NCBI GenBank assembly: GCA_964653695.1
Contig: CAZZFQ010000004.1
Coordinates: 1 to 50,075, forward strand
Direction: 5' to 3'
Length of the DNA stretch: 50,075 nucleotides
Origin: an uncultured Candidatus Bathyarchaeia archaeon
Lineage (GTDB): Archaea; Thermoproteota; Bathyarchaeia; 40CM-2-53-6; JALHTG01
Position 1 is the stretch's first letter, and every line of letters begins with the position of its first letter. The position numbers were made by a program, and so were the translations under genes. Under the pieces are notes generated by a model, which did not search any database, was not told the origin of the DNA, and worked only from the letters and a program-made list of their open reading frames with translations. Below are positions 849 through 18,510 of this stretch, one piece after another.

Positions 849-851
849 TAC

Positions 852-5649: not shown

Positions 5650-6231
5650 TTATGACAGTAATCTTCGAATTAGTCTCAGCACCAGTAGAGGAGAGATTAT
5701 CATCGTGCTCAAAACCAATGTTCCAGTTGAAACCATGGCTATGAACTCTGCGATGCTTATTTGACCGATGTAGAGAAACACGTATGACATCCCGAGGGCG
5801 AGGAGTGAAACGAGCCAGACTAAGGCCAGAGGCCTCAACGACATTCCGCTCTTCTTTCGTTTGTCGTCTGCTTTGACTGCGCCAAGGGCGATAATAGGCG
5901 ACGCGTATAGAAGCCCGAGGAGTGAACCTGAGACCAGGCCTGCCATAAGTACTCCGATCTCTGATTGTGGCTGGCAGATGTCGAACAGGGCTTGTCCGAG
6001 GCTGAGTGATCCAAGTAGTGGAGACAGTAGGACTCTTACGGCGGCTCTGGCAGTATCGCTTGCCGATATGAGTTCTGCTAGAGACGGGCTGAACGAGTAG
6101 TAGAACGCGTTGAATGCCTTCATGAACTGTGATCCCGCAAAGCTGCTCAATACGCGGCGATCTCTAAACTCTCTTAGAAACTGCACATGTGGTGAGAGCT
6201 CTGACTCGTATGCGGCTGAAGCTATGAGACA
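5650..6231 (-). repeat. Coding repeat: shared C-terminal Cys-box/FNAFYYSFSP anchor module, copy in gene 5650..7920 (extended version, 193 aa)
   Basis: Begins at the Cys codon (plus-strand ACA at 6229-6231). Contains the shared DNA string GGGCTGAACGAGTAGTAGAACGCGTTGAA starting at 6086. Confidence 0.85.
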
Positions 6232-7920
6232 TCTGCCCGGCGTTACAGCACGAGTCGTGGTTGTTGTCGCGGTGGTGGTTGCCGATGTAGTGGAGGTTGT
6301 GGTGGATACGGATGTTGAAGTTATGGTCGTTGTCGTCGTTGTGCTTGTGGAGCTGACGCTGTAGAAAGTCGTGGTTGTACTGACCGATACTGTCCAAATG
6401 TAGCTTGTCGAGGTGGCTAGGAACGTGAATATCGACATCGTATACGTGAACCCAACAGTCGTGTTTGTCGTCGTGGTCGTAGCCATCGCCGTGTAGATGA
6501 AGGACGTACTGGTTACAGGTATCCACGTGACGGTCGTGGTCCACGTGGATAGCGTAGAAGTTGTTGTGGTCGTATAGACCACCAAGGTTCCAGTTCTCGT
6601 CGTTGTTGCCGACGCAGTTGTTACAACGAACAAGAGTGGGCTCATTAGCGGGAAGAAGTCTTTGCTGTTCTTCGGACCGGAAAGCGTGTACGGAGTATCT
6701 CCGATTCCGTCGTTGTTGTTGTCGAAGCCGCTGTAGGCTGACCAGTAGTTTCCTCTCGAACCATCGTCCCATGCTATCGTTGTGCCATTGTCCCATGCTT
6801 GGATACCGGCCGGCTGTATACAGGGCAGCGAGTGAAGACCATTGTTTCTTATGTCGTTTCGATAGGTCTGGCACAGAGTCGTGACGTTTCCAAGTTTAGA
6901 GCCTACAACTATTCCTGCGAAGTCGTTGAGGTATATATCATTGAAGGTGATTCGCACGTTCCTTGCGCTCTGCATGAAGATTCCGGTGCCATTCGTGGCG
7001 GCGCTGTGTATCCTATTGTTGTAGATGGTGATGTCTTTGTTCTCGTAGTCTAGGCTTGTGTCATTGGACCTCCGCAAATATATGTTTCCTCCTGTTCCGT
7101 TTGTGGCTCTCTGATAGTTTGCATACATGATGTTTCCAGCGATCTCCAAGCTCTGAACGTGGTCCAGTCTGATCGCTGAGAGATGACAGTTGTATATCGT
7201 GTTGTCCCTGATCTTGTTGTCTATGTTCATAGAGCTTCCAATGGAACCGTTGATGACTATGCCTTCTCCCCTATTGAAAGGGGGAGAAGGAGGTCCGATC
7301 TTGTATATGGTGTTCCGCGATATCTCGTTCCTTTGGCATCCTTGCCTTAGGCAAACCGCGGACTCCGAATTCTCATAGATCTCGTTGTCAGTGATCATGT
7401 TTCCCTCAGCTGCGCTGATGAGTATGCTGGCAGAATTGTATCGTATTATGTTGAAGGTAATTATGTTGTTGAAGGAGCCGTATGCACTGATCGCTGTTCT
7501 GGCGTTCATCATATAACAGTAGCTGATGGTGCTTGGTCTGGTCGCACTGTAAAGGTAGATTCCTGCCCACTTGTTGCGATCGGTTCCGCCATCCTTCCAA
7601 GCGAATGTGATACGGTTCCCTGCTGTTCCAGAAGCTGCCAGCTTACCTCGTACCGTTAGGTTATAGTAGCCGTCGAAGTAGACTATTACCCCTGGCTCTA
7701 TGGTCAGGCTCTCATCGGTTGGGATAGTGACGTCTCTCTTTACGTGAAACGGGCTGTCAATAATCCTCCAGACCCCTCTTACAATTCCGTCAGAAGGATT
7801 CACGTCAGTTCCATAAGCTATTCTTATCTGCTCAATCATGAGTGATGAAACGATAATTCCCACGGCTATTAGGATAAGCAGCCAACATCTTCTCATTGAG
7901 ACAGCTCCGCGCGAGACCAA
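5650..7920 (-). CDS. Membrane-anchored surface protein: NosD/PbH1-like right-handed beta-helix head + Thr/Ser stalk + shared C-terminal Cys-box anchor module
   Basis: 756-aa ORF with an N-terminal hydrophobic segment (MRRCWLLILIAVGIIVSSL). It has repeated beta-helix turns (..ITDNEIYEN.., ..ISRNTIYK.., ..IRDNTIYNC.., ..IYNNRIHS.., ..ITFNDIYLN..) ending in GNYWSAYSGFDNNNDGIGDTPYTL, a motif typical of NosD-like domains. A Thr/Ser-rich stretch follows, then CLIASAAYESELSPHVQFLREFRDRR...FNAFYYSFSP and several C-terminal hydrophobic helices. The likely true start is the ATG at 7896. Confidence 0.75.
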   Translation of the reverse strand: MVSRGAVSMRRCWLLILIAVGIIVSSLMIEQIRIAYGTDVNPSDGIVRGVWRIIDSPFHVKRDVTIPTDESLTIEPGVIVYFDGYYNLTVRGKLAASGTAGNRITFAWKDGGTDRNKWAGIYLYSATRPSTISYCYMMNARTAISAYGSFNNIITFNIIRYNSASILISAAEGNMITDNEIYENSESAVCLRQGCQRNEISRNTIYKIGPPSPPFNRGEGIVINGSIGSSMNIDNKIRDNTIYNCHLSAIRLDHVQSLEIAGNIMYANYQRATNGTGGNIYLRRSNDTSLDYENKDITIYNNRIHSAATNGTGIFMQSARNVRITFNDIYLNDFAGIVVGSKLGNVTTLCQTYRNDIRNNGLHSLPCIQPAGIQAWDNGTTIAWDDGSRGNYWSAYSGFDNNNDGIGDTPYTLSGPKNSKDFFPLMSPLLFVVTTASATTTRTGTLVVYTTTTTSTLSTWTTTVTWIPVTSTSFIYTAMATTTTTNTTVGFTYTMSIFTFLATSTSYIWTVSVSTTTTFYSVSSTSTTTTTTITSTSVSTTTSTTSATTTATTTTTRAVTPGRCLIASAAYESELSPHVQFLREFRDRRVLSSFAGSQFMKAFNAFYYSFSPSLAELISASDTARAAVRVLLSPLLGSLSLGQALFDICQPQSEIGVLMAGLVSGSLLGLLYASPIIALGAVKADDKRKKSGMSLRPLALVWLVSLLALGMSYVFLYIGQISIAEFIAMVSTGTLVLSTMIISPLLVLRLIRRLLS

Positions 7921-7926
7921 TTGAGG

Positions 7927-8358
7927 CTATCCGTGCCCTATCCGTCGCCAAGACAGGGCTTGATTCACCGCTCTCTTGATGTCACCTTTCCTTCTGATTA
8001 CGCATCTAATTCCCATAACGGGTAGTACAAATGAAACGATCCCAACTAGAGCGCCGGAAAACAGCCCTAATGCGACCACCCCAAGTTCTGGAGCAAAGCC
8101 TAGCGCATTGAAGACGGATGATGAGACTTGAAGGATATATATCAACGGGTATACTAAGGCACGGACCACCGCCGCCAGAACTGGTGACGAGGCGATTATT
8201 GAGGCAACGGTTGGGCTGAACGAGTAGTAGAACGCGTTGAAGATCTTCATGAATTGCGCCCCAGCGAAGGTCGATAGGATTTTCCTGTCTCTGAACATTC
8301 TGAGCGACTGAACTTCTGGTGCGAGCTCTGACCCGTACGCTGCTGAGGCTATTATACA
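7927..8358 (-). repeat. Coding repeat: shared C-terminal anchor module, copy in gene 7927..10173 (143 aa)
   Basis: An identical 29-nt string GGGCTGAACGAGTAGTAGAACGCGTTGAA starts at 8213. The protein motif is CIIASAAYGS...FRDR...FNAFYYSFSP. Confidence 0.85.
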
Positions 8359-10173
8359 TGGTCGTATGGGCAGAAAGGTCGTGAAGGTTGTGGCCGTCGA
8401 TGTCAAAGTCACTGTCGGCGAGTACGAGGTTGTTGTGGTCGCGCTGGCTGATGTTGTGGTTGTTGAGGTTTCCTTTGTGGTGGTAGAAGTGAGTGTCACG
8501 GTTGGAGAGTACAAGGTTGTGTTCGCCTTGGTCGTCCTCGTTGTCGGCACCGTTACCGTGGGTGAGAAGATGGTTGACACCTGTGTGGCGGTTGTTGTTG
8601 ATGATGTGGTCTCTGAGAACCAAGATATGGATATCGCAGTTGCGGTCGTGAGTGTCGTGACGCTTTCCCAAGAGGTCGAAACGTATGTAGCGGTTATCGA
8701 CGTAGTTGTCGATGTGGTCTCTACAGAAACCAAAGATAACGTGTAGGTTGTGGTGGTCGTCGTAAATGACGTGCTTGAGGTGTAAGTGTATGTTGTGCCC
8801 CAATAGGTTGGTGAAGTTAGGACAGTGCTTACTGTGTCGACGATGGTCGAGCTTGCGGTTGTAGCGCTGGCTGTGACCGGTGTCTTTGTTGTTGGTGTTG
8901 TCGCAACAACAGCAGTCGATGTCGATACCATCGTGGGCGATGTAGTGACGGTAAGGACGGTTGAAGATGTGGTCACAGCATAGGAAATAGAGTATACAGT
9001 GGTTGTGACTGTTGGACCTTCAGGCTGCCTCAACCTTCCTATTCTTCTTCCTCCGTACTCCGTGAACCACACATTGATTGTCCCCGCCGCCTCACTCACC
9101 ACCGCTAAACCTTGGGGCTTAGCGGTTGGAGTGATGACGGAGTATTCCGTGAACGTGTTTGCAACTGGGATGTATTTTCCGATTTTATTGGCATAGTCTG
9201 AGAATTCGGTGAACCATACGTTGCTCTGTGAGTCGAGTTCGACTTCGTGAACTTCACTGTTAGGTGTAGGAACCCTGAAGATAGTTAGCGCCCATCTCGA
9301 GGTCTCATATGCGACTGGATTTAACCTGCCAATAATATTCTCGTCAGTGCCGACTCTTTGAGCAGTGAACCATACCATTCCGTCTGCATCGACCGCTAGA
9401 TCCCATGGATTGAAAGGATCGATTGAGTACGCTCTGAACTGTCCTGTTTCAGGGAGGAATCTGACTATGCTTTTCCTTGAGAAGTCAGCATACCATATGT
9501 ATCTCTGGGTCGGAGCCGGTCCAGTTGTGTCGAGTACGATGCCGATTGGATTCGATCCTGATATCGGAATCGGATATTCAACAAATGACGATAACCAGCT
9601 TCCCGCTATGGGAAAGCTGAACCTGCCAATCTTGCCCACTGCATACTCAGTGAACCATGTGCAATTCCGCCATCGATCATGGACTAACTTGCGTGGGCCA
9701 CTTCCAAGCGTTGGAATCGCGTACTCTGCTATGTTATGCGTGTTGTTTCGCGCCACGACTCCTATCTTGTTCGCATAGGCTTCGGTGAATACTGCTGCGG
9801 TCGCCGGCCAGTCCACAGTTGTGATAGCCCACGGCTGGCTGTTGAGCGTCGGCACGGGGATCTGCCTAAGCGTGCCATCGGCATAGTTTAGGCGGCCTAT
9901 ATTGTTACCGGCGCTTTCTGTGAACCAAACAAGCGGTGACGTTCCGTCCACACTTAGATCCCACAAGCCCGGATTACCTGGCACGACATATTCTGTAATA
10001 GTCGCGGCTTGAGCTGGCGTAAAGAAGAGCCCTGCAAGAAATAGTGCGGAAGCCACTCCAGCGATCCTACGCACGCCACATTTGGCTAGAATGTTGCCAG
10101 AATGGCCACGCCGAGCGAATAGGCCAAGGAGTAGACACACTGTAAAGCCAGAAAGGCACACTATCGGTGACAA
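7927..10173 (-). CDS. Membrane-anchored surface protein: Vgb (virginiamycin B lyase)-like 7-bladed beta-propeller head + Thr/Ser stalk + shared C-terminal Cys-box anchor module
   Basis: 748-aa ORF. Seven blade repeats of the WFTE-x(4-6)-N[KR]IG[RK] type are visible (VWFTESAGNNIGRL, VFTEAYANKIGVV, TWFTEYAVGKIGRF, IWYADFSRKSIVRF, VWFTAQ..NIIGRL, VWFTEFSDYANKIGKY, VWFTEYGGRRIGRL). A stalk of roughly 200 aa follows, then CIIASAAYGSELAPEVQSLRMFRDRK...FNAFYYSFSP plus hydrophobic helices and a basic tail. An SD-like AGGAGGAG lies 9 nt upstream of the TTG start. Confidence 0.8.
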   Translation of the reverse strand: MSPIVCLSGFTVCLLLGLFARRGHSGNILAKCGVRRIAGVASALFLAGLFFTPAQAATITEYVVPGNPGLWDLSVDGTSPLVWFTESAGNNIGRLNYADGTLRQIPVPTLNSQPWAITTVDWPATAAVFTEAYANKIGVVARNNTHNIAEYAIPTLGSGPRKLVHDRWRNCTWFTEYAVGKIGRFSFPIAGSWLSSFVEYPIPISGSNPIGIVLDTTGPAPTQRYIWYADFSRKSIVRFLPETGQFRAYSIDPFNPWDLAVDADGMVWFTAQRVGTDENIIGRLNPVAYETSRWALTIFRVPTPNSEVHEVELDSQSNVWFTEFSDYANKIGKYIPVANTFTEYSVITPTAKPQGLAVVSEAAGTINVWFTEYGGRRIGRLRQPEGPTVTTTVYSISYAVTTSSTVLTVTTSPTMVSTSTAVVATTPTTKTPVTASATTASSTIVDTVSTVLTSPTYWGTTYTYTSSTSFTTTTTTYTLSLVSVETTSTTTSITATYVSTSWESVTTLTTATAISISWFSETTSSTTTATQVSTIFSPTVTVPTTRTTKANTTLYSPTVTLTSTTTKETSTTTTSASATTTTSYSPTVTLTSTATTFTTFLPIRPCIIASAAYGSELAPEVQSLRMFRDRKILSTFAGAQFMKIFNAFYYSFSPTVASIIASSPVLAAVVRALVYPLIYILQVSSSVFNALGFAPELGVVALGLFSGALVGIVSFVLPVMGIRCVIRRKGDIKRAVNQALSWRRIGHG

Positions 10174-10178
10174 GCTGA

Positions 10179-10562
10179 CTATCTCCTCCTCGGCTTCTTC
10201 CTTAGGGCTTTCAATAAGAGTACAATCGGCGAAATGTAGATCGTGCCAATCAGCGAGCTCGCCAATGTGCCCGCCAAGAGAACCATCAGTTCTGGATTCA
10301 ACTGAAGCGAGTTAAACATCCATTCCGCCGAACGTAGCGAGGCGACAAGAGGATACATAAAGACTCTGGTGATCGCTTGGAGCGCCGGACTTGCCCCTGT
10401 CAGCTCTGCAACTTTCGGGCTGAATGAGTAGTAGAAGGCGTTGAAGACGCGCATGAACTGAGCGCCGGCGAGTGTTGACAATACTGCTCGATCTCTGAAC
10501 ATTCTGAGGAACTGTACTTCTGGAGCAAGCTGCGAACCATACGCAACAGATGCAATCACACA
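10179..10562 (-). repeat. Coding repeat: shared C-terminal anchor module, copy in gene 10179..12341 (127 aa)
   Basis: A near-identical string GGGCTGAATGAGTAGTAGAAGGCGTTGAA starts at 10417. The protein motif is CVIASVAYGS...FRDR...FNAFYYSFSP. Confidence 0.85.
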
Positions 10563-12341
10563 TGGGCGGGTGACCCCGACCGTTGTTGTTGTCACGGTTG
10601 TCGTTGCGAGAATTGAGGTGCTGACCGAGGTCGTAGGAGTAACAGAGGTACGGACGGAAATCAATGTGACCGTTGGTGAGAACGTCGTCGTCGCTATGAA
10701 TGACGTGTTCCCTAGTATGACAGTGACAGTCGGGTAGTTTAAGGTCGATGTTGCGGTGACCGTAGTCGTTGTTGATGAAGTTGAAACAATGACAATCGTA
10801 TTTGTTCTTGAGGTTGTCGAAGTGGTTGGTTGAACCATCCAAGATGTGAAAGTGGCGGTTGTGGAAGTAGTGGTAGGAAGCGTTGAGACGCTTACGATTG
10901 TCTGTGTCGCGGTGGTGGTTGTAGTCGTCGTGGTATATGAGGTTGACCAGGACGTCATCGTATAACTGTAGATGCTCGTGGTTGTCAACTGGAGCATACT
11001 GCTTGTGAAGGTGTACGTCGATGTTACGAGTGTCGCAGAAGCGGCCGCCGAGCCTATCGTGTTGATCGCGGCGACGATAGAAGCTGCCGAAGAATTGGTG
11101 TAGGCTCTGCTTGTCGTCATGGTCCGACTCGTCATCACAGCTGAGGATATTGTTCCAACTGTTGTGGTTGTGACGAGCGGGGGCGCGGACCAGCCGTATA
11201 TCGATCCAACTTTCTGAGCAAACGGCTCAGTAAACCACACTGTTCCATAGGGTCCCGAGACCGCCACGCCATGAGGCCTTCCGCCTACAGAGATAATGGG
11301 GTATTCAAAGAAGACATTTAGCCCAGGATCGTATCTTGACACTCTGTCACTACTATATTCTGTAAACCAGACATTCAGTACTGTGAATGGCGGGATGGTC
11401 GTTGCTTCAATGGCCAGTTCGCGGGGTTCTGAGTTAGGAGTTGGAACCGCAAAGGTCACGTATTCGCCTGAGACAGGGTTCAGTCTACCTATGCAGTTTC
11501 TCTTACTCTCGGTGACCCACACGAATCCATTCGGGTCTACTCCGATTCCCCACAAGCCGCTGTCAGGCGTTGTCGCGTAGTGTCTGAACAAGGCTGTGCC
11601 GTTCTCCAACAGCTTGATCGAGCTAATTCGATTAGTCCCGTATTCTGTGAACCAGATCGAATAGTCCATTGGACTCATGGCGATACAGAGGGGCTGAGTA
11701 TTCACTCCGGGCGTCGGGTAAGGTACTGAGTAGAACGAGAACCTCACATTAGTCGCGCCGTGAGTTTCGTTGCCGTATAGGTGGCCGATACGGTTTCTAC
11801 CCCACTCAGTGAACCAGACATCATACCTTGGGGTCTTCCCGTTCGACATCTTCGTTATGTTCATCGTTATGCCTCGAGGCCTCGCTTGGAATTGGTCGGG
11901 GAGACCCCATTCGTAGAACTTCTGTTCTGACGGTGCGTACCGAGCTATCTTACCGTGTGTTTCCTCGGTTACCCAGATGTCTTCGTGATCTTTACTGGCA
12001 GTTATTCCCCAAGGGATGGCGCCAACTGTCGGTATGTCCATTTGATAGAAGGGGACAGATACCTTGGCTATCCTGTTGGCGCCCTGCTCGGTGATCCACA
12101 CGGCGCCGTCCTTGTCTATGGCTATTCCCCAAGGAACGGGCGTGCCTGTCAGTCCATACTCGTAGACGATCACTGCCCTAGCTGGGGTCAGCAATAGTCC
12201 AGCTAGGCTTACCAGACAGATCAACGCGAGAAGTGCTCGCACTCGGATGTGCGTGCTCCTATCGCGCTTGTGAGAAAGGAAGAGAGCGATCGCGCCTGCG
12301 TTGAGGAGTACAAGCCAAGTCGCTGCCCACAAGCAAACCAC
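10179..12341 (-). CDS. Membrane-anchored surface protein: Vgb-like beta-propeller head + Thr/Ser stalk + shared C-terminal Cys-box anchor module
   Basis: 720-aa ORF with blade motifs (VWITEQGANRIAKV, IWVTEETHGKIARY, VWFTEWGRNRIGHL, IWFTEYGTNRISSI, VWVTESKRNCIGRL, VWFTEYSSDRVSRY, VWFTEPFAQKVGSI). A Thr/Ser stalk follows, then CVIASVAYGSQLAPEVQFLRMFRDRA...FNAFYYSFSP, hydrophobic helices and an RKKPRRR tail. Confidence 0.8.
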   Translation of the reverse strand: MVCLWAATWLVLLNAGAIALFLSHKRDRSTHIRVRALLALICLVSLAGLLLTPARAVIVYEYGLTGTPVPWGIAIDKDGAVWITEQGANRIAKVSVPFYQMDIPTVGAIPWGITASKDHEDIWVTEETHGKIARYAPSEQKFYEWGLPDQFQARPRGITMNITKMSNGKTPRYDVWFTEWGRNRIGHLYGNETHGATNVRFSFYSVPYPTPGVNTQPLCIAMSPMDYSIWFTEYGTNRISSIKLLENGTALFRHYATTPDSGLWGIGVDPNGFVWVTESKRNCIGRLNPVSGEYVTFAVPTPNSEPRELAIEATTIPPFTVLNVWFTEYSSDRVSRYDPGLNVFFEYPIISVGGRPHGVAVSGPYGTVWFTEPFAQKVGSIYGWSAPPLVTTTTVGTISSAVMTSRTMTTSRAYTNSSAASIVAAINTIGSAAASATLVTSTYTFTSSMLQLTTTSIYSYTMTSWSTSYTTTTTTTTATQTIVSVSTLPTTTSTTATFTSWMVQPTTSTTSRTNTIVIVSTSSTTTTVTATSTLNYPTVTVILGNTSFIATTTFSPTVTLISVRTSVTPTTSVSTSILATTTVTTTTVGVTRPCVIASVAYGSQLAPEVQFLRMFRDRAVLSTLAGAQFMRVFNAFYYSFSPKVAELTGASPALQAITRVFMYPLVASLRSAEWMFNSLQLNPELMVLLAGTLASSLIGTIYISPIVLLLKALRKKPRRR

Positions 12342-12353
12342 ACGCGCGATCCT

Positions 12354-12749
12354 TCAGTTCTCCTCGCGTCTTCTCCCAAGTCTCCTTGAACATAGGCTTG
12401 CTATGGTTGCGAGCGGAGTGACGTAGACTACCCCGATCAGCGCCGATGCCGCAACTCCAGAGGCTGCTATGGCGAACTCCGATGTGGAGCTGAACACACC
12501 GAATACCGTTGACGCTGACCGAAGCACTACTACCAACGGATAAAGAAGTACCTTCACAGCCTCTCGCAGGATCTGATACTGAGTGACCGATGAGGCTACC
12601 GCCGGGCTGAACGAGTAGTAGAATGCGTTGAAGATCCTCATGAAGGAACTGCCCGCGAATGTTGCTTCAACGGATTGGTCTCTGAACCCTCTGAGGAACT
12701 GCACTTCGGGCTCCAGTTCTGATCCGTAAGCCGCCGAGGCGATTAAGCA
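12354..12749 (-). repeat. Coding repeat: shared C-terminal anchor module, copy in gene 12354..14405 (131 aa)
   Basis: The string GGGCTGAACGAGTAGTAGAATGCGTTGAA starts at 12604. The protein motif is CLIASAAYGS...FRDQ...FNAFYYSFSP. Confidence 0.85.
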
Positions 12750-14405
12750 TCGGCGCACAGTGGGCGTGACAGTGACAGTCGTCAGATAGGTCGTGATAGA
12801 CGTTGATGTGGATGTTCCCGTTGTATAGGTCGTTGTCGTGCTGAAGCTGGAAGAGGTTGAAGTCCAAGATGTAACAACCATGCTTGTGATGGTTGGTGAA
12901 AATGTCGTCGTAGGATAGGTTACAGTCGTAGTCGAGGAGGAGGTCTCAGTAGTTGTCGATGTGGTCGTTGTGGATGTGGTTGTCGTCGTTGTAGATGTCT
13001 CTGTCGTTGTTGAGGCCTGCGAAGTTGTAGTTGTGGTCGTCGTAGTGGTTATGGTTGTACTCGTTGATGTCTGCGTACTCGTTGTTGTCGAGCTAGTGTA
13101 TAAAATCGATTTGGTTTCAGTGATTGTAGAACTCGTTATCGACCAAGCTGTTGCAGTGGAGGTGGTGTAGGCGGTTGCGATAGACGGGGACGTTGGAGAT
13201 ATAGTAGTTCTCGCCGAAACCGTTGCAGCTGCCGTTGATGTCGGAGACGCATGGCTTATCCAGTCCACAGTCGTAGTCTTCGTGTCTACTCCTCCGGCCA
13301 TCCACGCTGGCTGGAACACCCTTCCAAGCCTGTTTGTCTGCGCCTCAGTGAACACTATCGTGTCAGAGGAATGTATGCAGATTCCGTATGGTTGGCTTCC
13401 CGGAGTCGGAGTTGGATATTCATGGAAGTTGGCAGTTCCAGGAACGAACTTTCCTATCTTCGATGTGGCGAACTCCGTAAACCAGACATTACGATCTTGG
13501 TCAACTACTATCTGGCTGGGGCTCGATCCACCTGTCGGTATCACCCAGCCAACCGTCTCGTTCCTCCACCAGTTCAGACGGCAAATCATGTTGGTTCCGA
13601 TCGACGTGAACCATACGAATCCGTCTTGGTCGAACGTTACTCCGTTCGGTGAGGACGGGACTACGTAGCCTGTGAACTCTCCCTTCCAAGGATTGAAGCG
13701 TACTACGTGGTACGATCCGATAGCGGTGAACCAGACTATCCCGTCGCTATCTACCGTTAGGTGATGCGGTCCGCTGATCCCCGGCGGGATTGGATACTCG
13801 GTCATCTGCCATCCAACTCCCCCTAAGTACGTTAGCTTTCCAATTCGATTAACCATGAACTCCGTGAACCATACAGTTAGCCTAGGCCTGTCAATTGCAA
13901 TATCGCGAGGTTCTGCTGCGGCCGTGGTCGTTCGCCACTCCACGAACTCTCCGCTGATTGGATTTAGCCTGCCGATCTTGCTTCCGACTGACTCAGCAAA
14001 CCAGACAAATGTGCCTGTGTCTGTGTATATCTCTGGCCCCAACGCGATGCCCCAAGGATTGGATCCTTGGGTTGGAATCGCCCACTCTGTGAATTTCCCT
14101 GCACCCCATTCGACAAGTCCGATCCGGTTGCTCATCTGCGCCGTGTAGAACGCACGGTTCGCCGAAACGTCGCAGGCAACCTCCCACGGACGTGCCGGGC
14201 CAGTCGAATGCCAGTACTCAGCGATCACAGCAGCGCTAACAGGAGTGATCAGCAGCCCGATAAGGAATGCTGATGAGGCTAATAGGCTCAGTCCTCTAAA
14301 CCACATCTTGGATCTCGGACACTTCAACCAACCCGTCGCAAATAGAACTAGGAACATGCACACGTTGAAGCCTATGAAGCCGACCATGCTCTCCAAATCA
14401 AACAC
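12354..14405 (-). CDS. Membrane-anchored surface protein: Vgb-like beta-propeller head + Thr/Ser stalk + shared C-terminal Cys-box anchor module
   Basis: 683-aa ORF with blade motifs (FYTAQMSNRIGLV, VWFAESVGSKIGRL, VWFTEFMVNRIGKL, VWFTAIGSYHVVRF, VWFTSIGTNMICRL, VWFTEFATSKIGKF, IVFTEAQTNRLGRV). It has an extreme Thr stalk (TTTTTTTTTSQASTTTETSTTTTTTSTTTTSTTTE), then CLIASAAYGSELEPEVQFLRGFRDQS...FNAFYYSFSP. Its start overlaps the upstream gene's stop. Confidence 0.8.
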   Translation of the reverse strand: MFDLESMVGFIGFNVCMFLVLFATGWLKCPRSKMWFRGLSLLASSAFLIGLLITPVSAAVIAEYWHSTGPARPWEVACDVSANRAFYTAQMSNRIGLVEWGAGKFTEWAIPTQGSNPWGIALGPEIYTDTGTFVWFAESVGSKIGRLNPISGEFVEWRTTTAAAEPRDIAIDRPRLTVWFTEFMVNRIGKLTYLGGVGWQMTEYPIPPGISGPHHLTVDSDGIVWFTAIGSYHVVRFNPWKGEFTGYVVPSSPNGVTFDQDGFVWFTSIGTNMICRLNWWRNETVGWVIPTGGSSPSQIVVDQDRNVWFTEFATSKIGKFVPGTANFHEYPTPTPGSQPYGICIHSSDTIVFTEAQTNRLGRVFQPAWMAGGVDTKTTTVDWISHASPTSTAAATVSARTTISPTSPSIATAYTTSTATAWSITSSTITETKSILYTSSTTTSTQTSTSTTITTTTTTTTTSQASTTTETSTTTTTTSTTTTSTTTETSSSTTTVTYPTTTFSPTITSMVVTSWTSTSSSFSTTTTYTTGTSTSTSITTYLTTVTVTPTVRRCLIASAAYGSELEPEVQFLRGFRDQSVEATFAGSSFMRIFNAFYYSFSPAVASSVTQYQILREAVKVLLYPLVVVLRSASTVFGVFSSTSEFAIAASGVAASALIGVVYVTPLATIASLCSRRLGRRREEN

Positions 14406-14790
14406 CTCCTGAAGCTATCACCCTTCTGCGAAAAGCCTTCAGCAGAATCACAATTGGTGAAACATATGCTACACTGACCAGGGCACTCGCAAGGATCCCC
14501 GCAACCATGACCATCAACTCTGGCGCCTGCGGACAGAGCTGATAGACTGATGCCGTTACGCGAAGTGAGGCGACTAGCGGATAAATGAGAACTCGGACGA
14601 TAGCTTGGAGAGTCGGATTCCCAGCTACTATCTCCGCTACATTCGGACTGAAGGAGTAGTAGAACGCGTTGAAAGCCTTCATGAACTGGGCGCCAGCGAA
14701 TGTTGACATTACCGCTCTATTTCTGAACTCTCTAAGGAGCTGGACTTCTGGAGCAAACTGCGAGCCATACGCCGCAGACGCAATGACGCA
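14398..14790 (-). repeat. Coding repeat: shared C-terminal anchor module, copy in gene 14398..16611 (130 aa)
   Basis: The string GGACTGAAGGAGTAGTAGAACGCGTTGAA starts at 14645. The protein motif is CVIASAAYGS...FRNR...FNAFYYSFSP. Confidence 0.85.
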
Positions 14791-16611
14791 GGCCCTTGAA
14801 GGAGGAGTAGCAGTTACAGTCACAGACGTGATAAGTGTCGTCGTCTGAAGGATCACTGACGTTACAGATAAGGTTGGAGTTGTTGTGGTGGTCGTCGTTG
14901 TTAGGTAAGTTGAAGTTGTACTCATGGTTGTCGGGGTAGTTATCGTAGGCGAGTAACTTGTGGATGTGTAGGTGGTACCTGTCGTTGTTGTTGTACTCGT
15001 CGTAGTCAGGGATGTAGTCGTTGAAGTTGAGGTTGGCGTCGTGGTAGTAAGCGTTGTTGACGTTGTGGTTGTCACTGATGTACTGGTCGATGTTGTGGTT
15101 GTTATGGAGGTCGATGTTGTTGTCTTCGTCCATGTACTCGTCGTCGATGTTTCAAGAATTGTGAGTATATCAGGTAGAGTCACTGTTGCGTCGGCTACTG
15201 ATGTTGTGGCTCTAGTGGCTGTCACCACCGCGGCGGCAGGGATTACCGTTAAGCTTGCCGTCGCTCCCGTTGACAGCGTTGTTGCTGAGGACGTCGTTGT
15301 ACTTGCAGAGGATACCCATCCAACTGAGGTTGCTGTCCAAGGACCAAGAAGGAGCGCTATCTTCCCGATCTTGTTTGCAACTTCCTCCGCAAAGAAAACG
15401 TTTATCTTGCCGACGTGGTCGGGATGCACACCAGGCCCCACGGTACCAGACCAAAGTCTCGGTGTGACAGCTATTCCATGAGGCTTAGAGCTGTCCGTCG
15501 GGATCACGAACTCCTGAAACACGTTGAATCCAGGAATGTATCTTCCGATTCTGTTGGAGGCGCTCTCCGTGAACCATATGCAACGATCTGTGTCGTTTGC
15601 CAAGTAAAGAGGCTCGTTCCCTGGAGAATGAACTGGAAGAGGTACCTCAGTTATGATTCCTGTCCAAGGGTTGAGTTTTGCCAACCTGTCTCCAAGTTTC
15701 TGCGTGAACCAAACAAATGCCTCTTGATCAACAATTATTGCCCAAGGAGTGCCACGAGTTGAATATTCATCGATGAGCCCCGTCTGGCTATTCACCCTTC
15801 CAATCTTATTTGCTGCCTGCATGGTAAACCACACATAGGTGTGCTTCCCTACCTGTGGACCCGTTCCAGTCACAGCCCAGTAGTTTGGATCAACCGCGAT
15901 GTCTGTAGGATAGCTCTCGGGGGTTGGTAGGCTGTACTCAACGAATTTCCAAATGCCAGATGGGATGTGAAGGAATAGCTTTCCGATCTTGTTCGCTTGG
16001 TACTCAACGAACCACACGCTTCCGTTGTATGGGTCGATTGCCAAGTTCATCGGGCCACTGTTTGGGGTCGGAATCGTCCATTCGGACATCCGTCCTGTGG
16101 TGAGATCTAGTACGCCGATACGGTTTCTAACAAACTCGGTGAACCAGACCATCTTCTCTTTATGATTAACATCTCCTGCCTGCAAAGTGTAGTTGCCAAG
16201 CTGGACATCGCGAGGTTCAGCTGTCCGCCAGTCATCTCCTGGGAGCCGAAACTCAGCCAGAGTTGTGTTGTAGATACCGTTGAGAAGGCACTGACCTGTG
16301 CCCATAAAGCCGATCATGCCAGCATGCTTCTCAGCAAATACTACAAAGCTACTGTTAATGGCGACATCAATCCCGAAGGGCACCCTCACCGAGGGATCTG
16401 TGGAAGGCAAAGATCTTTCGACAATAACAGTGGCGACTGCTCTTTGAGGAATAAGCATCGCAAGTAAGAATACCGACAAGAAGATTAGAAGGAGCCGTCT
16501 GACGGTATGTTTTCCGGCGATTTGGCTCAAGAATCGACCGGATAGCATCAAGGCGGCGAGGAAGCATATGTTGAAGCCTAGAAAATACCAAATCGGCTCC
16601 AAACGTATCAC
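14398..16611 (-). CDS. Membrane-anchored surface protein: Vgb-like beta-propeller head (longer loops) + Thr/Ser stalk + shared C-terminal Cys-box anchor module
   Basis: 737-aa ORF and first gene of the array. Blade motifs include VWFTEFVRNRIGVL, VWFVEYQANKIGKL, VWFTMQAANKIGRV, VWFTQKLGDRLAKL, IWFTESASNRIGRY and VFFAEEVANKIGKI. A Thr/Ser stalk follows, then CVIASAAYGSQFAPEVQLLREFRNRA...FNAFYYSFSP. It has a GTG start with a TATA-like box about 30 nt upstream. Confidence 0.8.
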   Translation of the reverse strand: MIRLEPIWYFLGFNICFLAALMLSGRFLSQIAGKHTVRRLLLIFLSVFLLAMLIPQRAVATVIVERSLPSTDPSVRVPFGIDVAINSSFVVFAEKHAGMIGFMGTGQCLLNGIYNTTLAEFRLPGDDWRTAEPRDVQLGNYTLQAGDVNHKEKMVWFTEFVRNRIGVLDLTTGRMSEWTIPTPNSGPMNLAIDPYNGSVWFVEYQANKIGKLFLHIPSGIWKFVEYSLPTPESYPTDIAVDPNYWAVTGTGPQVGKHTYVWFTMQAANKIGRVNSQTGLIDEYSTRGTPWAIIVDQEAFVWFTQKLGDRLAKLNPWTGIITEVPLPVHSPGNEPLYLANDTDRCIWFTESASNRIGRYIPGFNVFQEFVIPTDSSKPHGIAVTPRLWSGTVGPGVHPDHVGKINVFFAEEVANKIGKIALLLGPWTATSVGWVSSASTTTSSATTLSTGATASLTVIPAAAVVTATRATTSVADATVTLPDILTILETSTTSTWTKTTTSTSITTTTSTSTSVTTTTSTTLTTTTPTSTSTTTSLTTTSTTTTTGTTYTSTSYSPTITTPTTMSTTSTYLTTTTTTTTPTLSVTSVILQTTTLITSVTVTATPPSRACVIASAAYGSQFAPEVQLLREFRNRAVMSTFAGAQFMKAFNAFYYSFSPNVAEIVAGNPTLQAIVRVLIYPLVASLRVTASVYQLCPQAPELMVMVAGILASALVSVAYVSPIVILLKAFRRRVIASGGV

Positions 16612-16639
16612 AGAAGTAAGGTTATACCTTTGGATAGGC

Positions 16640-16647
16640 TATATAAT
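16640..16647 (-). promoter_or_regulatory. Candidate archaeal TATA box for the five-gene surface-protein operon
   Basis: The minus strand reads ATTATATA, centred about 32 nt upstream of the GTG start at 16611. This spacing fits a very short leader. It lies within a 405-nt AT-richer intergenic region. Confidence 0.35.
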
Positions 16648-16990
16648 GTTAACGACAAGTCCTATGTAATTTTCATGGCGCGTTTATAGAAGATTAATCG
16701 CCAACTTGCAATCATCTCCGTTGCCGGACGAGAATCATCAGAAGACTGATGGAATGGAAGAGGTGGCCCGCCCGGTCAAGCTTTGGAACACCTTCCTATG
16801 AATTGATCATGAAGGTTTCGGGACATTATGCGAGCTTCTTCAGAGCGAAGACCATGACATCAACAGGCCGTAGTCAAGCACCGCATCTTGACAACTTCGC
16901 TTCTTTGACGGCTCACGTGACGTAAGTTCCACTAGAAACAGAGGTAGGGCCTACCGAAGCTTCTTGAAAAGAGAGCTTCTTCCGAATAGA

Positions 16991-17019
16991 CAATCCTTTA
17001 AATACGGCTCAAAGGATTG
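16991..17019 (+). promoter_or_regulatory. Candidate TATA box (TTTAAATA, 16997-17004) embedded in a perfect 9-bp inverted repeat (possible operator)
   Basis: CAATCCTTT (16991-16999) and AAAGGATTG (17011-17019) are exact reverse complements with an 11-nt spacer. TTTAAATA overlaps the left arm and spacer. The ATG of the lectin-like gene at 17035 is about 35 nt downstream of the box. Confidence 0.4.
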
Positions 17020-18315
17020 TTCACGGGATCAACAATGAATAGGCACTTTCTCATTGCAATAGGGGCACTTCTTAGCTTGCTTGTTGTCTCGAACACCTCC
17101 GTTACTAGGATTGTGGAGGCGCAACCCTTCACGGCTGTCTGGTTTGAAGCCTTCGACGGGTTGACTACTTTCGATGACTTTGGGGGCCAGTTATCTGATC
17201 ATTGGACGACTTACCGAGGAGGCCCTGAGATCAGGGCTGGAGGAGGCAGAGGCTCGGTCCTCGTTATGACTCATCCTGACCCAGGAGGAGAACTCGGCGC
17301 CTTCAAAGATCAGGCCTCGACTGCTCTGTTCCTATCGAACCCAATGACAGTGAACTTTGTCGACGGAATGATTGAGTTTGACATTTACTTCGAAACCATG
17401 AGAGAGAGCGGAGCCAGCGCTATGCTTACATTTCGAATGCAAAGCGAAGACACCTACTATGCTCTTAGACTTACAAGTACGAGGGATTGGAGATGTTACT
17501 TTGCCAGGTATTTTGGATGCGGAAACTGGCGGACGTTAGGCACACAATCAGACCTCGGCGTCTTTCCGACGCAGGCTTGGTCCCATGTTGTGGTCACGGT
17601 CGGCGGCCCGAGATTCCAAGCCTACAAGGATGGAGTACTCATCTGTGAGGCTGTCGATGAGACTTGGCAAAGAGGATGTTGGGGCGGGATAGGATTCCAG
17701 AACAACTACTATGGCGCTTCCTTCTACATCGACAACTTCAGGATTCCAGAAGGTTTCCAATGGACGACATATAGAGGGGCTCCTGGCCGTGACACCTTCT
17801 CAGGTAGGTCCGCTCCGTCAATGCTCTTTGACCATCCCAGCGAATTAGCCGACGGCGCTCCATTTGCAGACATAAATTGCTACTCGGCTTACGTCTCGAA
17901 ACCGGACATGAGATGCTTCACGAACGGGGCCGTAGAGTTTGACATACTATTCGACAATCCCGGAGGGCAGAAGGCGTTCATCACATTCAGAATGCAGAGC
18001 GACACTGAATACTATGCAGTCAGGTTGACGAGCACAAAGGACTGGACCTGCTATTTCCTTAAACAAAACGGGTGGGGCAGCTATGAGATCTTAGGGACCC
18101 AGTCCGCGAACGGAGTCATTCCTCTTCAAGCTTGGACGCACATCAAGATAGTCATCAATGGTGGGCAATTCGAATGCTACCGAGACGGCTACTTGATATG
18201 CTCGGCCTTTGACCAAACATGGTCAATCGGGACTTGGGGAGGCATCGGTTTCTACAGCGCATACAACAGAGGACTGTTTCACATAGATAACCTGAAGATC
18301 TGCCTCGCAAGATAA
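17017..18315 (+). CDS. Secreted protein with two tandem concanavalin-A/LamG-like (DUF1080-like) jelly-roll domains
   Basis: 432-aa ORF whose likely start is the ATG at 17035 (MNRHFLIAIGALLSLLVVSNTS signal-like). Two internal repeats of about 185 aa share WTTYRG, EFDI.F, TFRMQS..YYA.RLTST.DW.CYF, LGTQS, QAW.H, Y.DG.LIC, WGGIGF and IDN..I. The W..v.v...G....y.dG and G.IGF...IDN.rI patterns resemble LamG/DUF1080 folds. The family call is by eye only. Confidence 0.6.
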   Translation: MFTGSTMNRHFLIAIGALLSLLVVSNTSVTRIVEAQPFTAVWFEAFDGLTTFDDFGGQLSDHWTTYRGGPEIRAGGGRGSVLVMTHPDPGGELGAFKDQASTALFLSNPMTVNFVDGMIEFDIYFETMRESGASAMLTFRMQSEDTYYALRLTSTRDWRCYFARYFGCGNWRTLGTQSDLGVFPTQAWSHVVVTVGGPRFQAYKDGVLICEAVDETWQRGCWGGIGFQNNYYGASFYIDNFRIPEGFQWTTYRGAPGRDTFSGRSAPSMLFDHPSELADGAPFADINCYSAYVSKPDMRCFTNGAVEFDILFDNPGGQKAFITFRMQSDTEYYAVRLTSTKDWTCYFLKQNGWGSYEILGTQSANGVIPLQAWTHIKIVINGGQFECYRDGYLICSAFDQTWSIGTWGGIGFYSAYNRGLFHIDNLKICLAR

Positions 18316-18500
18316 AGAGCTGCATCTTCACCTTCGAAAAGCCGCAGCAAACGACGGAAGAGTTTCTTTACGAATTCCCGGGGGCATATTGCTATCAGAG
18401 ATTCTTGACAACCCCCTTCTCTTCGCCGGTTGATTGGGTTCGCAGTCTCGGACAGATGAGGAAAAGAGGCTGAGAATCGAGTTTCTGCGACTCCCACCTG

Positions 18501-18510
18501 TTTTATATAA
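18501..18510 (+). promoter_or_regulatory. Candidate archaeal TATA box
   Basis: TTTTATATAA is centred about 32 nt upstream of the TTG start at 18538, consistent with a leaderless or short-leader transcript. Confidence 0.35.

What the first reader, a model, noticed from the sequence alone, without database searches (positions are those of the whole stretch)
5650..16611. Five-gene tandem array of modular surface proteins: swappable head + Thr/Ser stalk + one shared Cys-box membrane anchor
Five consecutive minus-strand ORFs (14398..16611, 12354..14405, 10179..12341, 7927..10173, 5650..7920) are separated by only -8 to +12 nt. SD-like strings sit inside the preceding gene's 3' end (AGGAGGAG at 10183-10190, GGAGGTG at 14407-14413). 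A TATA-like box is seen only upstream of the first gene, so they read as one operon of about 11 kb.

All five share the same plan: a hydrophobic leader, a globular head, a Thr/Ser stalk of roughly 130-220 aa, and a conserved 127-193 aa C-terminal module. The heads are clearly diverged, and only blade motifs align by eye. The anchor module is conserved down to a nearly identical 29-nt DNA string recurring every 2.0-2.2 kb (starts 6086, 8213, 10417, 12604, 14645).

Four heads are Vgb (streptogramin lyase)-type 7-bladed propellers. One is a NosD-like beta-helix. This looks like a display cassette that presents different binding or enzymatic heads on a common glyco-stalk and anchor. I do not know of any functional description of this architecture.
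Basis: partly seen in the sequence, partly recalled or inferred. Interest (0 to 1): 0.8.

Follow-up and report, generated by a model that had tools for sequence, protein, structure and literature searches.

The report
Operon of five anchored archaeal surface proteins
Five neighbouring genes of an uncultured Bathyarchaeia archaeon encode cell-surface proteins that carry different heads on a threonine-rich stalk and share one membrane anchor; the anchor is already a catalogued but unstudied family, and two glycosyltransferase genes that always sit next to the array are candidate enzymes for sugar-coating the stalks.

Summary
Five minus-strand ORFs sit at the stated coordinates, tightly packed behind one conserved TATA element. 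Each encodes leader, head, Thr/Ser stalk and a conserved C-terminal module.

Four heads are Vgb-fold seven-bladed propellers. For gene 2 the AF2 model matches PDB 2Z2N/2Z2O at TM 0.9. None of the four keeps the Vgb catalytic residues. The fifth head is a NosD-type beta-helix.

The "Cys-box anchor" is not new. All five hit NCBIfam NF041770, CFI-box-CTERM. That family has more than 22,000 representative clusters, carries heads from 86 Pfam families in a sample of 71, and has no literature, Pfam model or PDB analogue.

The same five genes in the same order occur in at least five other Bathyarchaeia assemblies. They always lie divergent to a PMT-like GT-C, a small ORF, a GT87 GT-C and a ConA-like secreted protein, even where the outer flanks differ.

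Best reading: one operon of type-I-anchored, probably O-glycosylated surface proteins with binding heads rather than lyase heads. The near-identical 29-nt string is an invariant peptide plus codon bias.

Verdict: a new member of a known kind, of moderate interest. The glycosyltransferase linkage and the invariant Cys are the parts worth following.

The parts
16639..16656 (-). Conserved promoter block GTCGTTAACATTATATAG (TATA-like TTATATA at 16640-16646), about 30-45 nt upstream of the gene 1 start
   Evidence: Identical in the window, L020, L001 and L026 while flanking bases vary. TATA-like hexamers listed.
14398..16611 (-). Gene 1 (737 aa): N-terminal two-helix leader, Vgb-fold propeller, S/T stalk (14791-15360), CFI-box anchor (14401-14790). 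The start may be TTG 16602.
14403..14409 (-). SD-like GGAGGTG inside the 3' end of gene 1, 8 nt upstream of TTG 14396 (probable gene 2 start)
   Evidence: Orthologues start MEP/MES.
12354..14405 (-). Gene 2 (683 aa). Leader helices, residues 4-52. Seven-bladed propeller, residues 57-364 (13314-14237). Folded beta neck, residues 383-430 (13116-13259). Disordered S/T linker, residues 431-552 (12750-13115). CFI-box anchor, residues 553-683 (12357-12749).
   Evidence: AF2 model. Foldseek to Vgb at TM 0.89-0.92. Pfam and NCBIfam.
10179..12341 (-). Gene 3 (720 aa): leader, Vgb-fold/NHL propeller, S/T stalk (10563-11198), CFI-box anchor (10182-10562)
10183..10190 (-). SD-like AGGAGGAG inside the 3' end of gene 3, 9 nt upstream of the gene 4 TTG start
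7927..10173 (-). Gene 4 (748 aa): leader, Vgb-fold propeller, S/T stalk (8359-9030) with three [FY]SPTVT motifs, CFI-box anchor (7930-8358)
5650..7920 (-). Gene 5 (756 aa, probably starting at ATG 7896): single signal peptide, right-handed beta-helix (Beta_helix/NosD) head, S/T stalk (6232-6648), long CFI-box anchor with two extra TM helices (5653-6231)
   Evidence: The long-tail anchor is the commoner family form.
17017..18315 (+). Divergent neighbour: secreted protein with two ConA-like (Laminin_G_3 / 3-keto-disaccharide hydrolase-like) domains. Part of the conserved nine-gene block.
   Evidence: Synteny.
18538..19731 (+). GT87-family GT-C membrane glycosyltransferase. Part of the conserved block.
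   Evidence: Pfam PF09594, 38.5 bits against GA 25. Synteny.
19812..20402 (+). Conserved 196-aa ORF of unknown function between the two GT-C genes
   Evidence: No family hit. Conserved in position.
20549..21751 (+). PMT-like GT-C glycosyltransferase; candidate stalk O-glycosyltransferase (inferred)
   Evidence: Pfam PMT 43.7 bits (GA 22.7) and PMT_2 38 bits. Best NCBIfam hit is protein O-mannosyltransferase, 68.7 bits against a cut-off of 800. Synteny.

Best explanation
The five genes form one operon of a Bathyarchaeia archaeon and encode five paralogous, C-terminally anchored cell-surface proteins.

Route and topology (inferred from sequence):
- Each protein is exported through an N-terminal hydrophobic leader, with AxA-type cleavage sites in genes 1-4.
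- The head sits outside the cell on a short folded beta neck followed by a disordered linker of about 120 aa or more, 50-64% Ser+Thr.
- The protein is held in the membrane by a CFI-box-CTERM module. This is a conserved helical domain that begins with an invariant Cys and lies on the outer face. One TM helix and a cytoplasmic Arg/Lys cluster follow. Gene 5 has two further TM helices.

Heads: four are diverged seven-bladed propellers of the virginiamycin B lyase fold that have lost the Vgb catalytic/metal residues. They most likely bind ligands or have a different activity. The fifth is a NosD/CASH-type right-handed beta-helix.

Glycosylation (inferred): the stalks are most likely O-glycosylated at the outer membrane face by the two lipid-carrier-dependent GT-C glycosyltransferases (PMT-like and GT87). 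These are encoded divergently upstream in a nine-gene block that is inherited as a unit.

Role (inferred): a fixed set of five glycoprotein 'lollipops' that forms part of the cell envelope and captures or processes extracellular polymers.

Shown here: gene structure, domain identities, fold, family membership and synteny. Inferred: co-transcription, signal cleavage, topology, glycosylation and ligand binding.
For: Gene order and signals:
- ORFs and spacing.
- An 18-nt TATA block conserved in four genomes.
- SD-like sites 8-9 nt before the internal starts of genes 2 and 4, with GGAGG occurring only 10 times in 11 kb.
- No T5 run on the coding strand across the array.
- An independent gene caller gives the same tight arrangement in L026 and L027.

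Domains:
- Pfam Vgb_lyase in four genes and Beta_helix/NosD in the fifth, all above gathering cut-offs.
- NF041770 CFI_box_CTERM in all five, 66-73 bits against a cut-off of 40.

Structure of gene 2 (AF2):
- 28 strands at pLDDT above 90, i.e. seven blades.
- A beta neck at residues 383-430, pLDDT 81-89.
- A linker at residues 430-553, pLDDT about 23.
- Foldseek best hits are Vgb structures 2z2o, 2z2n, 2z2p and 2qc5, at TM 0.89-0.92, rmsd 2.2-2.4 A and 27-28% identity.
- All four heads align to seven WFTE-type blades of Vgb.

Anchor:
- AF2 with 95 sequences gives pLDDT 87.6 and six helices.
- The last helix is hydrophobic with a low hydrophobic moment (0.09). Helix 69-93 is amphipathic with two Arg. 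The C-terminal tails carry 3-7 K+R with 0-2 D+E (net +3 to +7), which fits an N-out, C-in orientation.

Conservation:
- The same five genes in the same order occur in CAYQCQ01, JALHTG01 and three JGI contigs.
- Orthologues share 54-80% identity in the heads; paralogous heads share 30-37%.
- The block PMT-like / ORF / GT87 / ConA-like stays attached to the array in L027 and L028 although both outer flanks differ from the window.
Against: - There are no expression, proteomic or glycan data.
- Start codons are uncertain and co-transcription is inferred only.
- The PMT-like protein is a distant relative: 68.7 bits against an equivalog cut-off of 800. The N-terminal ~98 model positions, which include the DE motif, are unmatched.
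- In the more distant genome L009 the GT87/PMT pair lies about 5 kb from a small CFI gene, which is weak linkage.
- Genes 1-4 have an unexplained extra N-terminal hydrophobic helix. If the leader is not cleaved, the head would sit on the membrane and the stalk idea fails.
- The invariance of Cys, Gln, two Arg and YYSFSP in the anchor suggests more than passive anchoring.
- The ligand or activity of the heads is unknown.
Confidence: 0.68

Rival explanations
1. The CFI-box is not a permanent anchor. It is a recognition and processing module, as PGF-CTERM is for archaeosortase. An unknown enzyme would cleave at or modify the invariant Cys, for example by adding a lipid or making a covalent link to an envelope polymer.
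For: Cys, Gln, two Arg, YYSFSP and several Gly/Pro are invariant or nearly so across modules attached to heads from 86 Pfam families. A hydrophobic helix followed by a basic cluster ends genes 1-4. The family is huge and always C-terminal. It has no Pfam or PDB analogue, so its chemistry is open.
Against: The module is 127-193 aa, not a tripartite signal of about 25-30 aa (PMC6098224). Among the top representatives, 126 of 137 have more than 50 further residues after it (gene 5's tail holds two more TM helices), which is unlike a removable tail. No sortase-like or other recurrent neighbour turned up in 27 loci. NCBIfam scans gave no PGF/PEP-type signal hit.
Confidence: 0.2
2. The four propellers are active extracellular lyases or lactonases of the Vgb/SGL type. 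The array would be a surface-displayed enzyme battery that degrades cyclic esters or related environmental compounds.
For: The Vgb fold matches at TM about 0.9. Pfam Vgb_lyase scores are strong. SGL (lactonase) family hits are precomputed for homologues. His270 is retained in genes 1 and 3, and His228 in gene 4.
Against: Glu268 is replaced in all four: K, Q, R, K. His270 is Y in gene 2 and Q in gene 4. His228 is L, S and R in genes 1-3. 2Z2P is annotated as the catalytically inactive H270A mutant. In Vgb the catalytic Mg2+ and the substrate bind conserved polar residues of blades 6 and 7 (PMC8916777). NCBIfam Vgb(A)/Vgb(B) scores are 88-123 bits against a cut-off of 600.
Confidence: 0.15
3. 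The five proteins are subunits of one hetero-oligomeric envelope structure (an S-layer-like canopy or a stalk complex). They would be held together by their CFI-box helical domains.
For: A fixed 4+1 gene set in fixed order is kept at 59-67% identity. Each paralogue is under its own purifying selection. The juxtamembrane helical domain is strongly conserved. Cultivated Bathyarchaeum has an S-layer of unknown composition (PMC10477458).
Against: No multimer prediction or lattice evidence could be produced here. Known archaeal S-layers are built from one or two proteins (PMC5744192). CFI-box proteins elsewhere mostly occur singly or in pairs.
Confidence: 0.15
4. The array is a variation cassette. 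Heads or whole genes would be shuffled by recombination through the shared anchor sequence, to vary the cell surface against viruses or grazers.
For: Tandem paralogues share a near-identical 29-nt string. Array proteins diverge faster than flanking genes: about 60-80% against 82-96% identity to CAYQCQ01.
Against: Orthologues are strictly 1:1 and collinear in six assemblies. Paralogue DNA is diverged apart from that short stretch. The stretch is explained by the invariant peptide FNAFYYSFS plus C-ending codons, and its four-fold sites do vary. There are essentially no DNA tandem repeats in the array.
Confidence: 0.03

Closest known systems
NCBIfam NF041770, CFI-box-CTERM domain-containing proteins
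   Same: All five C-terminal modules match above the curated cut-off. They are C-terminal and start with the invariant Cys-x-Ile motif. As in the rest of the family, the module carries unrelated heads.
   Different: Genes 1-4 have the rarer short form with one TM helix: 11 of 137 top representatives, against 126 with a tail of more than 50 residues, as in gene 5, where it holds two more TM helices. The motif here is C[VLI]IAS rather than CFIAT. The family itself has no described function or literature.
Haloarchaeal S-layer glycoprotein (Halobacterium / Haloferax SLG)
   Same: Sec signal peptide, a large extracellular part, and a Thr-rich O-glycosylated cluster next to a C-terminal hydrophobic anchor (PMC6098224).
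   Different: SLG carries a short PGF-CTERM tripartite signal that archaeosortase ArtA cleaves and replaces with a lipid. Here there is a 127-193 aa helical module with no PGF motif. The heads are propellers or a beta-helix, and there are five paralogues in an operon rather than one abundant protein.
Virginiamycin B lyase Vgb (PDB 2Z2N, 2Z2O, 2Z2P, 2QC5)
   Same: Seven-bladed propeller with WFTE-type blades. TM 0.89-0.92 and 27-28% identity for gene 2. Pfam PF24684 membership.
   Different: Vgb is a cytoplasmic single-domain enzyme of about 300 aa. Here the fold is secreted and tethered, and the residues at positions 228, 268, 270 and 284 are not conserved.
NosD (nitrous oxide reductase maturation protein) and CASH-type beta-helix proteins
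   Same: Gene 5 matches Pfam NosD and Beta_helix above gathering cut-offs. It also shares the C-terminal cap motif with NosD structure 7O0Y.
   Different: TIGR04247 scores 52 bits against a cut-off of 300. The PDB match is a 32-residue stretch at E 5e-4. No nos genes lie nearby; the neighbours are thiolases and the other array genes.
Fungal GPI-anchored adhesins (Als, Flo, Epa families); comparison from my own knowledge, not tested
   Same: Functional analogy: a variable N-terminal binding head, a Ser/Thr-rich stalk O-mannosylated by PMT enzymes, and a common C-terminal anchor. The genes often occur as paralogue families.
   Different: No homology. The fungal anchor is a GPI/glucan link, the organisms are eukaryotes, and adhesin repeats vary in length, whereas stalk lengths here are conserved between orthologues.
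Actinobacterial protein O-mannosylation (GT39 PMT acting on S/T-rich linkers of secreted proteins)
   Same: A PMT-family GT-C enzyme is encoded next to secreted proteins with long S/T-rich linkers. In Cellulomonas and Corynebacterium such linkers receive up to about 65 hexoses (PMC11727336).
   Different: The window protein is only distantly PMT-like, and its DE motif was not found. A review states that archaea lack Pmts (PMC8147084). No glycan data exist here.

Membership tests
CFI-box-CTERM (NCBIfam NF041770) | HMM score above the curated cut-off (40 bits) | tested here: met
   70.1, 66.0, 66.1, 70.3 and 73.5 bits for genes 1-5, covering the full 69-position model
CFI-box-CTERM (NCBIfam NF041770) | The domain lies at the C-terminus and begins with the Cys-hydrophobic-Ile signature | tested here: met
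   The Cys is at residue 608, 553, 594, 606 and 564, which is 127-193 aa from the end. The motif is C[VLI]IAS. The Cys is invariant in 95- and 71-sequence alignments.
Pfam PF24684 Vgb_lyase family (fold level) | HMM above the gathering score, and a seven-bladed propeller superimposable on Vgb | tested here: met
   124-160 bits against GA 50 for genes 1-4. The AF2 model of gene 2 matches 2z2n/2z2o at TM 0.89-0.92. Seven blades align in all four. Only gene 2 was modelled.
Streptogramin B lyase Vgb(A)/Vgb(B) (enzyme, NCBIfam NF000022 / NF000096) | Score above the curated cut-off (600 bits) | tested here: not met
   88-123 bits
Streptogramin B lyase Vgb(A)/Vgb(B) (enzyme) | Catalytic/metal-site residues His228, Glu268, His270 and Glu284. 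The residue list is from my memory of Korczynska et al. 2007. The H270A mutant is labelled inactive in PDB 2Z2P. | tested here: not met
   Position 228 is L, S, R, H. Position 268 is K, Q, R, K. Position 270 is H, Y, H, Q. Position 284 is ambiguous in the alignment. The Vgb sequence was reconstructed.
NosD (TIGR04247, nitrous oxide reductase maturation) | Subfamily HMM cut-off (300 bits) and a nos operon context | tested here: not met
   52.1 bits. The neighbours are thiolase/DUF35 genes and the array itself. Only the generic Pfam NosD and Beta_helix repeats are met.
Archaeosortase/exosortase-type C-terminal sorting signals (PGF-CTERM, PEP-CTERM and similar) | A short signature motif directly followed by a TM helix and a basic cluster at the extreme C-terminus (about 25-30 aa) | tested here: not met
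   NCBIfam reported no such model. The Cys motif is separated from the TM helix by about 90 residues of helical domain. Most family members continue for more than 50 residues after the TM helix.
GT39 protein O-mannosyltransferase (for the neighbour at 20549-21751) | Pfam PMT above the gathering score | tested here: met
   PF02366 43.7 bits (GA 22.7); PF13231 38 bits (GA 26.1)
GT39 protein O-mannosyltransferase (for the neighbour at 20549-21751) | Equivalog-level score, and the DE motif in loop 1 (required for activity, PMC11727336) | tested here: not met
   NF058602 scores 68.7 bits against a cut-off of 800 and matches only model positions 99-183. An HPPLAK motif is present, but the position expected for DE reads D18-A19 by eye. 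There is no PDB sequence match.
Archaeal S-layer protein | Forms the 2-D lattice and is among the most abundant proteins | not testable with these tools
   No expression or imaging data. Only context from PMC10477458 and PMC5744192.

The most novel reading that the evidence does not exclude
The conserved nine-gene block is a self-contained archaeal protein O-glycosylation module with its substrates. The PMT-like and GT87 GT-C enzymes would mannosylate the Thr/Ser stalks of the five CFI-box proteins at the outer membrane face.

That would supply the first candidate enzymes for archaeal O-glycosylation. A 2018 review said the pathway components were unidentified (PMC6098224), and a 2021 review stated that archaea have no Pmts (PMC8147084).

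In addition, the CFI-box, with its invariant Cys, would be the recognition or attachment element of an undescribed and very widespread archaeal surface-anchoring system.
Probability: 0.22. Interest if true: 0.75.

Novelty: new member of a known kind. Interest (0 to 1): 0.45.

Why it matters
Bathyarchaeia are among the most abundant archaea in anoxic sediments, yet their envelope proteins are essentially unknown. This locus gives a concrete, conserved set of envelope glycoprotein candidates.

It shows that the catalogued but unstudied CFI-box anchor is a very large family (more than 22,000 clusters at 50% identity) that carries many kinds of heads.

It also ties two GT-C glycosyltransferases to Thr/Ser-rich substrates by conserved synteny. 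That makes the unsolved question of which enzymes carry out archaeal O-glycosylation testable by heterologous co-expression or by glycoproteomics of enrichments.

It further warns that the 'streptogramin lyase' annotations on these proteins describe a fold, not a function.

Tried and rejected
- Literature: searches for 'CFI-box', 'CFI box', 'CFI-box-CTERM', 'CFIATAAYG' and 'IATAAYGS' found no paper.
- CFI module against Pfam at E up to 1: nothing.
- CFI profile against PDB sequences: only a chance hit at E 1.1.
- Foldseek of the confident CFI model against PDB: best E 6.3.
- Search for a partner or processing gene, by clustering all ORFs of 27 loci: nothing recurrent beyond the GT-C/ConA block and the syntenic flanks.
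- Is the 29-nt string a DNA-level element or a gene-conversion tract? Rejected. Identical-codon use is high (78% against 43% elsewhere), but it is carried by F, N and Y codons ending in C and by Ser codon families fixed across 30 genes from many genomes. The four-fold sites vary.
- DNA tandem repeats in the stalks: essentially none.
- The antisense ORFs listed (for example the Val-rich ORF at 8366-8746 +) read as mirror images of the Thr-rich coding strand (my inference). I disregarded them.
- tRNA scan of the window: none found.
- Source names for ten large CFI representatives: only 'hypothetical protein'.
- Korczynska et al. 2007 (PMC1965523) is not held. The identity of the Vgb catalytic residues therefore rests on my memory, the PDB title of 2Z2P and PMC8916777.
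- PMT-like protein against PDB sequences: no match.
- The genome-contig scan used narrow peptide patterns, so it samples only close relatives. The taxonomic range of the family outside Thermoproteota was not established.


Full report
**Observation**

For maximal ORFs the gaps are -8, +12, +5 and +6 nt. The 29-nt string is present at all five stated positions with 0-2 mismatches. AGGAGGAG is at 10183-10190 as stated.

The start codons need adjusting.
- The N-terminal extensions are conserved at the protein level in orthologues.
- Many orthologues called in other metagenomes start with ATG as 'MEP..'.
- Gene 2 therefore most likely starts at TTG 14396, 8 nt after GGAGG and 1 nt after the stop of gene 1.
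- Gene 4 starts at its TTG, 9 nt after GAGGAGGAG.
- Gene 5 most likely starts at ATG 7896.

GGAGG occurs only 10 times in the 10,962-nt array, so these placements are not chance.

**Transcription signals**

Upstream of gene 1, the block GTCGTTAACATTATATAG (16639-16656) is identical in four genomes while its surroundings vary. No run of five or more T occurs on the coding strand from 17016 to 5500. Four other TATA-like hexamers lie inside coding sequence. One operon is the best reading, but it remains an inference.

**Organism and conservation**

A scan of species-representative genomes with the anchor profile returned 25 loci. All came from Bathyarchaeia, Thermoproteota or 'Nitrososphaerota' MAGs.

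- The flanking genes of the window are 82-96% identical in protein to those of the uncultured Bathyarchaeia MAG CAYQCQ01.
- The five genes occur in the same order in that MAG (L020 + L003), in MAG PFL18 (L001 + L002) and in a 296-kb JGI contig (L026).
- Two JGI contigs of a more distant lineage (L027, L028) also carry them. There the proteins are 59-67% identical to the window's and every one has the anchor and an S/T-rich stalk.
- Orthologous heads share 54-80% identity and paralogous heads share 30-37%. The duplications are therefore old and each copy is maintained.
- Gene 2 alone has about 22 orthologue clusters of 673-686 aa.

**Heads**

Genes 1-4 hit Pfam Vgb_lyase at E 1e-36 to 1e-47. 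Gene 5 hits Beta_helix and NosD.

An AF2 model of gene 2, built with 30 homologues, shows 28 strands (residues 57-364) at pLDDT above 90. Its best PDB matches are the Vgb structures, at TM 0.89-0.92, rmsd 2.2-2.4 A and 27-28% identity. All four heads align to the seven WFTE-type blades of Vgb.

The fold does not carry the enzyme.
- I reconstructed the Vgb chain from the printed alignments. It has H, E, H and E at positions 228, 268, 270 and 284.
- The four heads have L/S/R/H at 228, K/Q/R/K at 268 and H/Y/H/Q at 270.
- PDB 2Z2P is the 'catalytically inactive H270A' enzyme.
- The catalytic Mg2+ and the substrate bind conserved polar residues of blades 6 and 7 (PMC8916777).
- NCBIfam Vgb(A)/Vgb(B) scores are 88-123 bits against a cut-off of 600.

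The propellers are therefore Vgb-fold domains of unknown, probably binding, function.

The head of gene 5 meets only the generic beta-helix/NosD repeat models. TIGR04247 scores 52 bits against a cut-off of 300. The only NosD structure match is a 32-residue cap motif.

**Stalk**

The S/T-rich regions span 149-229 aa at 50-64% S+T.
- In the gene 2 model the first ~50 residues (383-430) form a confident small beta module (pLDDT 81-89). Residues 430-553 are disordered, at pLDDT about 23.
- Stalk lengths are nearly constant between orthologues, for example 139/139/141 and 224/222/228 aa.
- There are essentially no DNA tandem repeats.
- A motif [FY]SPT[VI]T lies 22-70 residues before the anchor Cys in genes 1-4.

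**Anchor**

All five C-terminal modules match NCBIfam NF041770, CFI-box-CTERM, at 66-73 bits against a cut-off of 40.

It is otherwise uncharacterised.
- No paper in the library mentions it.
- It has no Pfam family.
- It has no PDB sequence relative.
- It has no structural analogue: Foldseek best E is 6.3.

An AF2 model from 95 sequences is confident (pLDDT 87.6, pTM 0.71). It shows six helices: four short ones, an amphipathic 25-residue helix and a 37-residue hydrophobic helix. The C-terminal tails carry 3-7 K+R with 0-2 D+E (net +3 to +7). Gene 5 adds two more hydrophobic helices with basic loops on alternate sides. By the positive-inside rule the helical box lies outside, followed by one TM helix in genes 1-4 or three in gene 5.

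A profile search of 1.84 billion representatives found 22,176 clusters at E <= 1e-3 and 840 at E <= 1e-30. In the 150 listed the module lies at or near the C-terminal end.
- 126 of 137 top representatives have the long tail (more than 50 residues after the module), as gene 5 does.
- 71 full-length representatives carry heads from 86 Pfam families. Ig-like folds dominate (Big_3_5 in 29, Filamin in 11, Big_1 in 10, PKD in 8). Vgb_lyase occurs in 5 and NosD/Beta_helix in 3.
- Cys, Gln, two Arg and YYSFSP are invariant or nearly so. That is more conservation than a passive anchor needs.

**The 29-nt string**

It encodes FNAFYYSFS. Identical-codon use there is 78%, against 43% at other identical residues. 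Across 30 CFI genes from many genomes the pattern is C-ending F/N/Y codons and fixed Ser codon families, while the Ala and first-Ser four-fold sites vary. An invariant peptide plus codon bias explains it. No DNA-level element or gene conversion is needed.

**Neighbours**

Four genes lie divergently upstream:
- a secreted protein with two ConA-like domains (17017-18315);
- a GT87 GT-C glycosyltransferase (18538-19731);
- a conserved 196-aa ORF (19812-20402);
- a PMT-like GT-C (20549-21751). Its Pfam scores are PMT 43.7 bits and PMT_2 38 bits. Its best NCBIfam hit is protein O-mannosyltransferase, far below the equivalog cut-off.

These four genes stay attached to the array in every assembly examined. 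This includes L027 and L028, where the outer flanks on both sides differ from the window. No other recurrent neighbour of CFI genes was found in 27 loci.

The literature context makes this linkage the most interesting part.
- The components of archaeal O-glycosylation were unidentified as of a 2018 review (PMC6098224).
- A 2021 review states that archaea lack Pmts (PMC8147084).
- Actinobacterial PMTs mannosylate exactly such S/T-rich linkers (PMC11727336).

The linkage is still an inference. The DE motif was not found in the PMT-like protein, and its N-terminal third does not match the model.

**Explanation and rivals**

The best-supported reading is one operon of five type-I-anchored, probably O-glycosylated surface proteins. 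Binding-type heads sit on flexible stalks above a CFI-box anchor.

I considered four rivals.
- The CFI-box is a processed or lipid-attachment signal. This is plausible from its invariance, but the module is long and usually followed by more TM helices.
- The heads are active lyases. The residues at the Vgb active-site positions argue against this.
- The five proteins form a hetero-oligomeric envelope structure. This could not be tested here.
- The array is a surface-variation cassette. Stable collinear orthologues reject it.

**Unexplained**

Genes 1-4 carry an extra N-terminal hydrophobic helix before the signal-like helix. It is conserved in orthologues and rare elsewhere in the family: 3 of 112 representatives, at least two of which look like array-type proteins.

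**Verdict**

The anchor is a known though unstudied family, and the overall plan is the usual one for archaeal surface glycoproteins. I class this as a new member of a known kind, of moderate interest. The conserved glycosyltransferase linkage and the invariant-Cys module are the leads worth pursuing.

Noticed in passing
window 17017-21751 (+): A ConA-like secreted protein, a GT87 GT-C, a 196-aa ORF and a PMT-like GT-C form a block. It stays attached to the five-gene array in six assemblies, even where the outer flanks differ. They are candidate O-glycosylation enzymes for the stalks.
   Followed up: partly
window genes 1-4, N-termini (e.g. 14238-14405 for gene 2): Two hydrophobic helices with a K/R-rich loop precede the head, with AxA after the second helix. 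The feature is conserved in orthologues but occurs in only 3 of 112 other CFI-box representatives. The role of the first helix is unknown.
   Followed up: partly
window stalks of genes 1-4; L027 orthologues: The motif [FY]SPT[VI]T recurs 22-70 residues upstream of the anchor Cys (three copies in gene 4). It also occurs in three of the L027 orthologues.
   Followed up: no
P0001-P0377 (family-wide): Most CFI-box proteins have a longer anchor, with more than 50 residues after the module (126 of 137); in gene 5 that tail holds two extra TM helices. The one-TM form of genes 1-4 is the minority. JGI names many CFI fragments 'peptide/nickel transport system substrate-binding protein', which looks like annotation carry-over.
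   Followed up: partly
window 366-5533: Three thiolase-like genes and three DUF35/ChsH2-type OB-fold zinc-ribbon genes are clustered (archaeal thiolase/DUF35 type). The cluster is syntenic in CAYQCQ01.
   Followed up: no
window 22761-28215: A beta-oxidation-like set: acyl-CoA dehydrogenase, two CoA-transferase subunits, 3-hydroxyacyl-CoA dehydrogenase and an AMP-binding ligase.
   Followed up: no
window 31161-34160 (-): A 999-aa protein combines a type I phosphodiesterase/nucleotide pyrophosphatase domain with a glycoside hydrolase family 39 domain.
   Followed up: no
window 8366-8746 (+) and other antisense ORFs listed: Long ORFs on the opposite strand of the stalks (the one at 8366-8746 is visibly Val-rich). 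I read them as mirror images of the Thr-rich coding strand, not genes.
   Followed up: partly
window 16997-17002: A palindromic TTTAAA lies 15-20 nt upstream of the TTG start of the ConA-like gene. It may be the TATA box of a leaderless divergent transcript.
   Followed up: no
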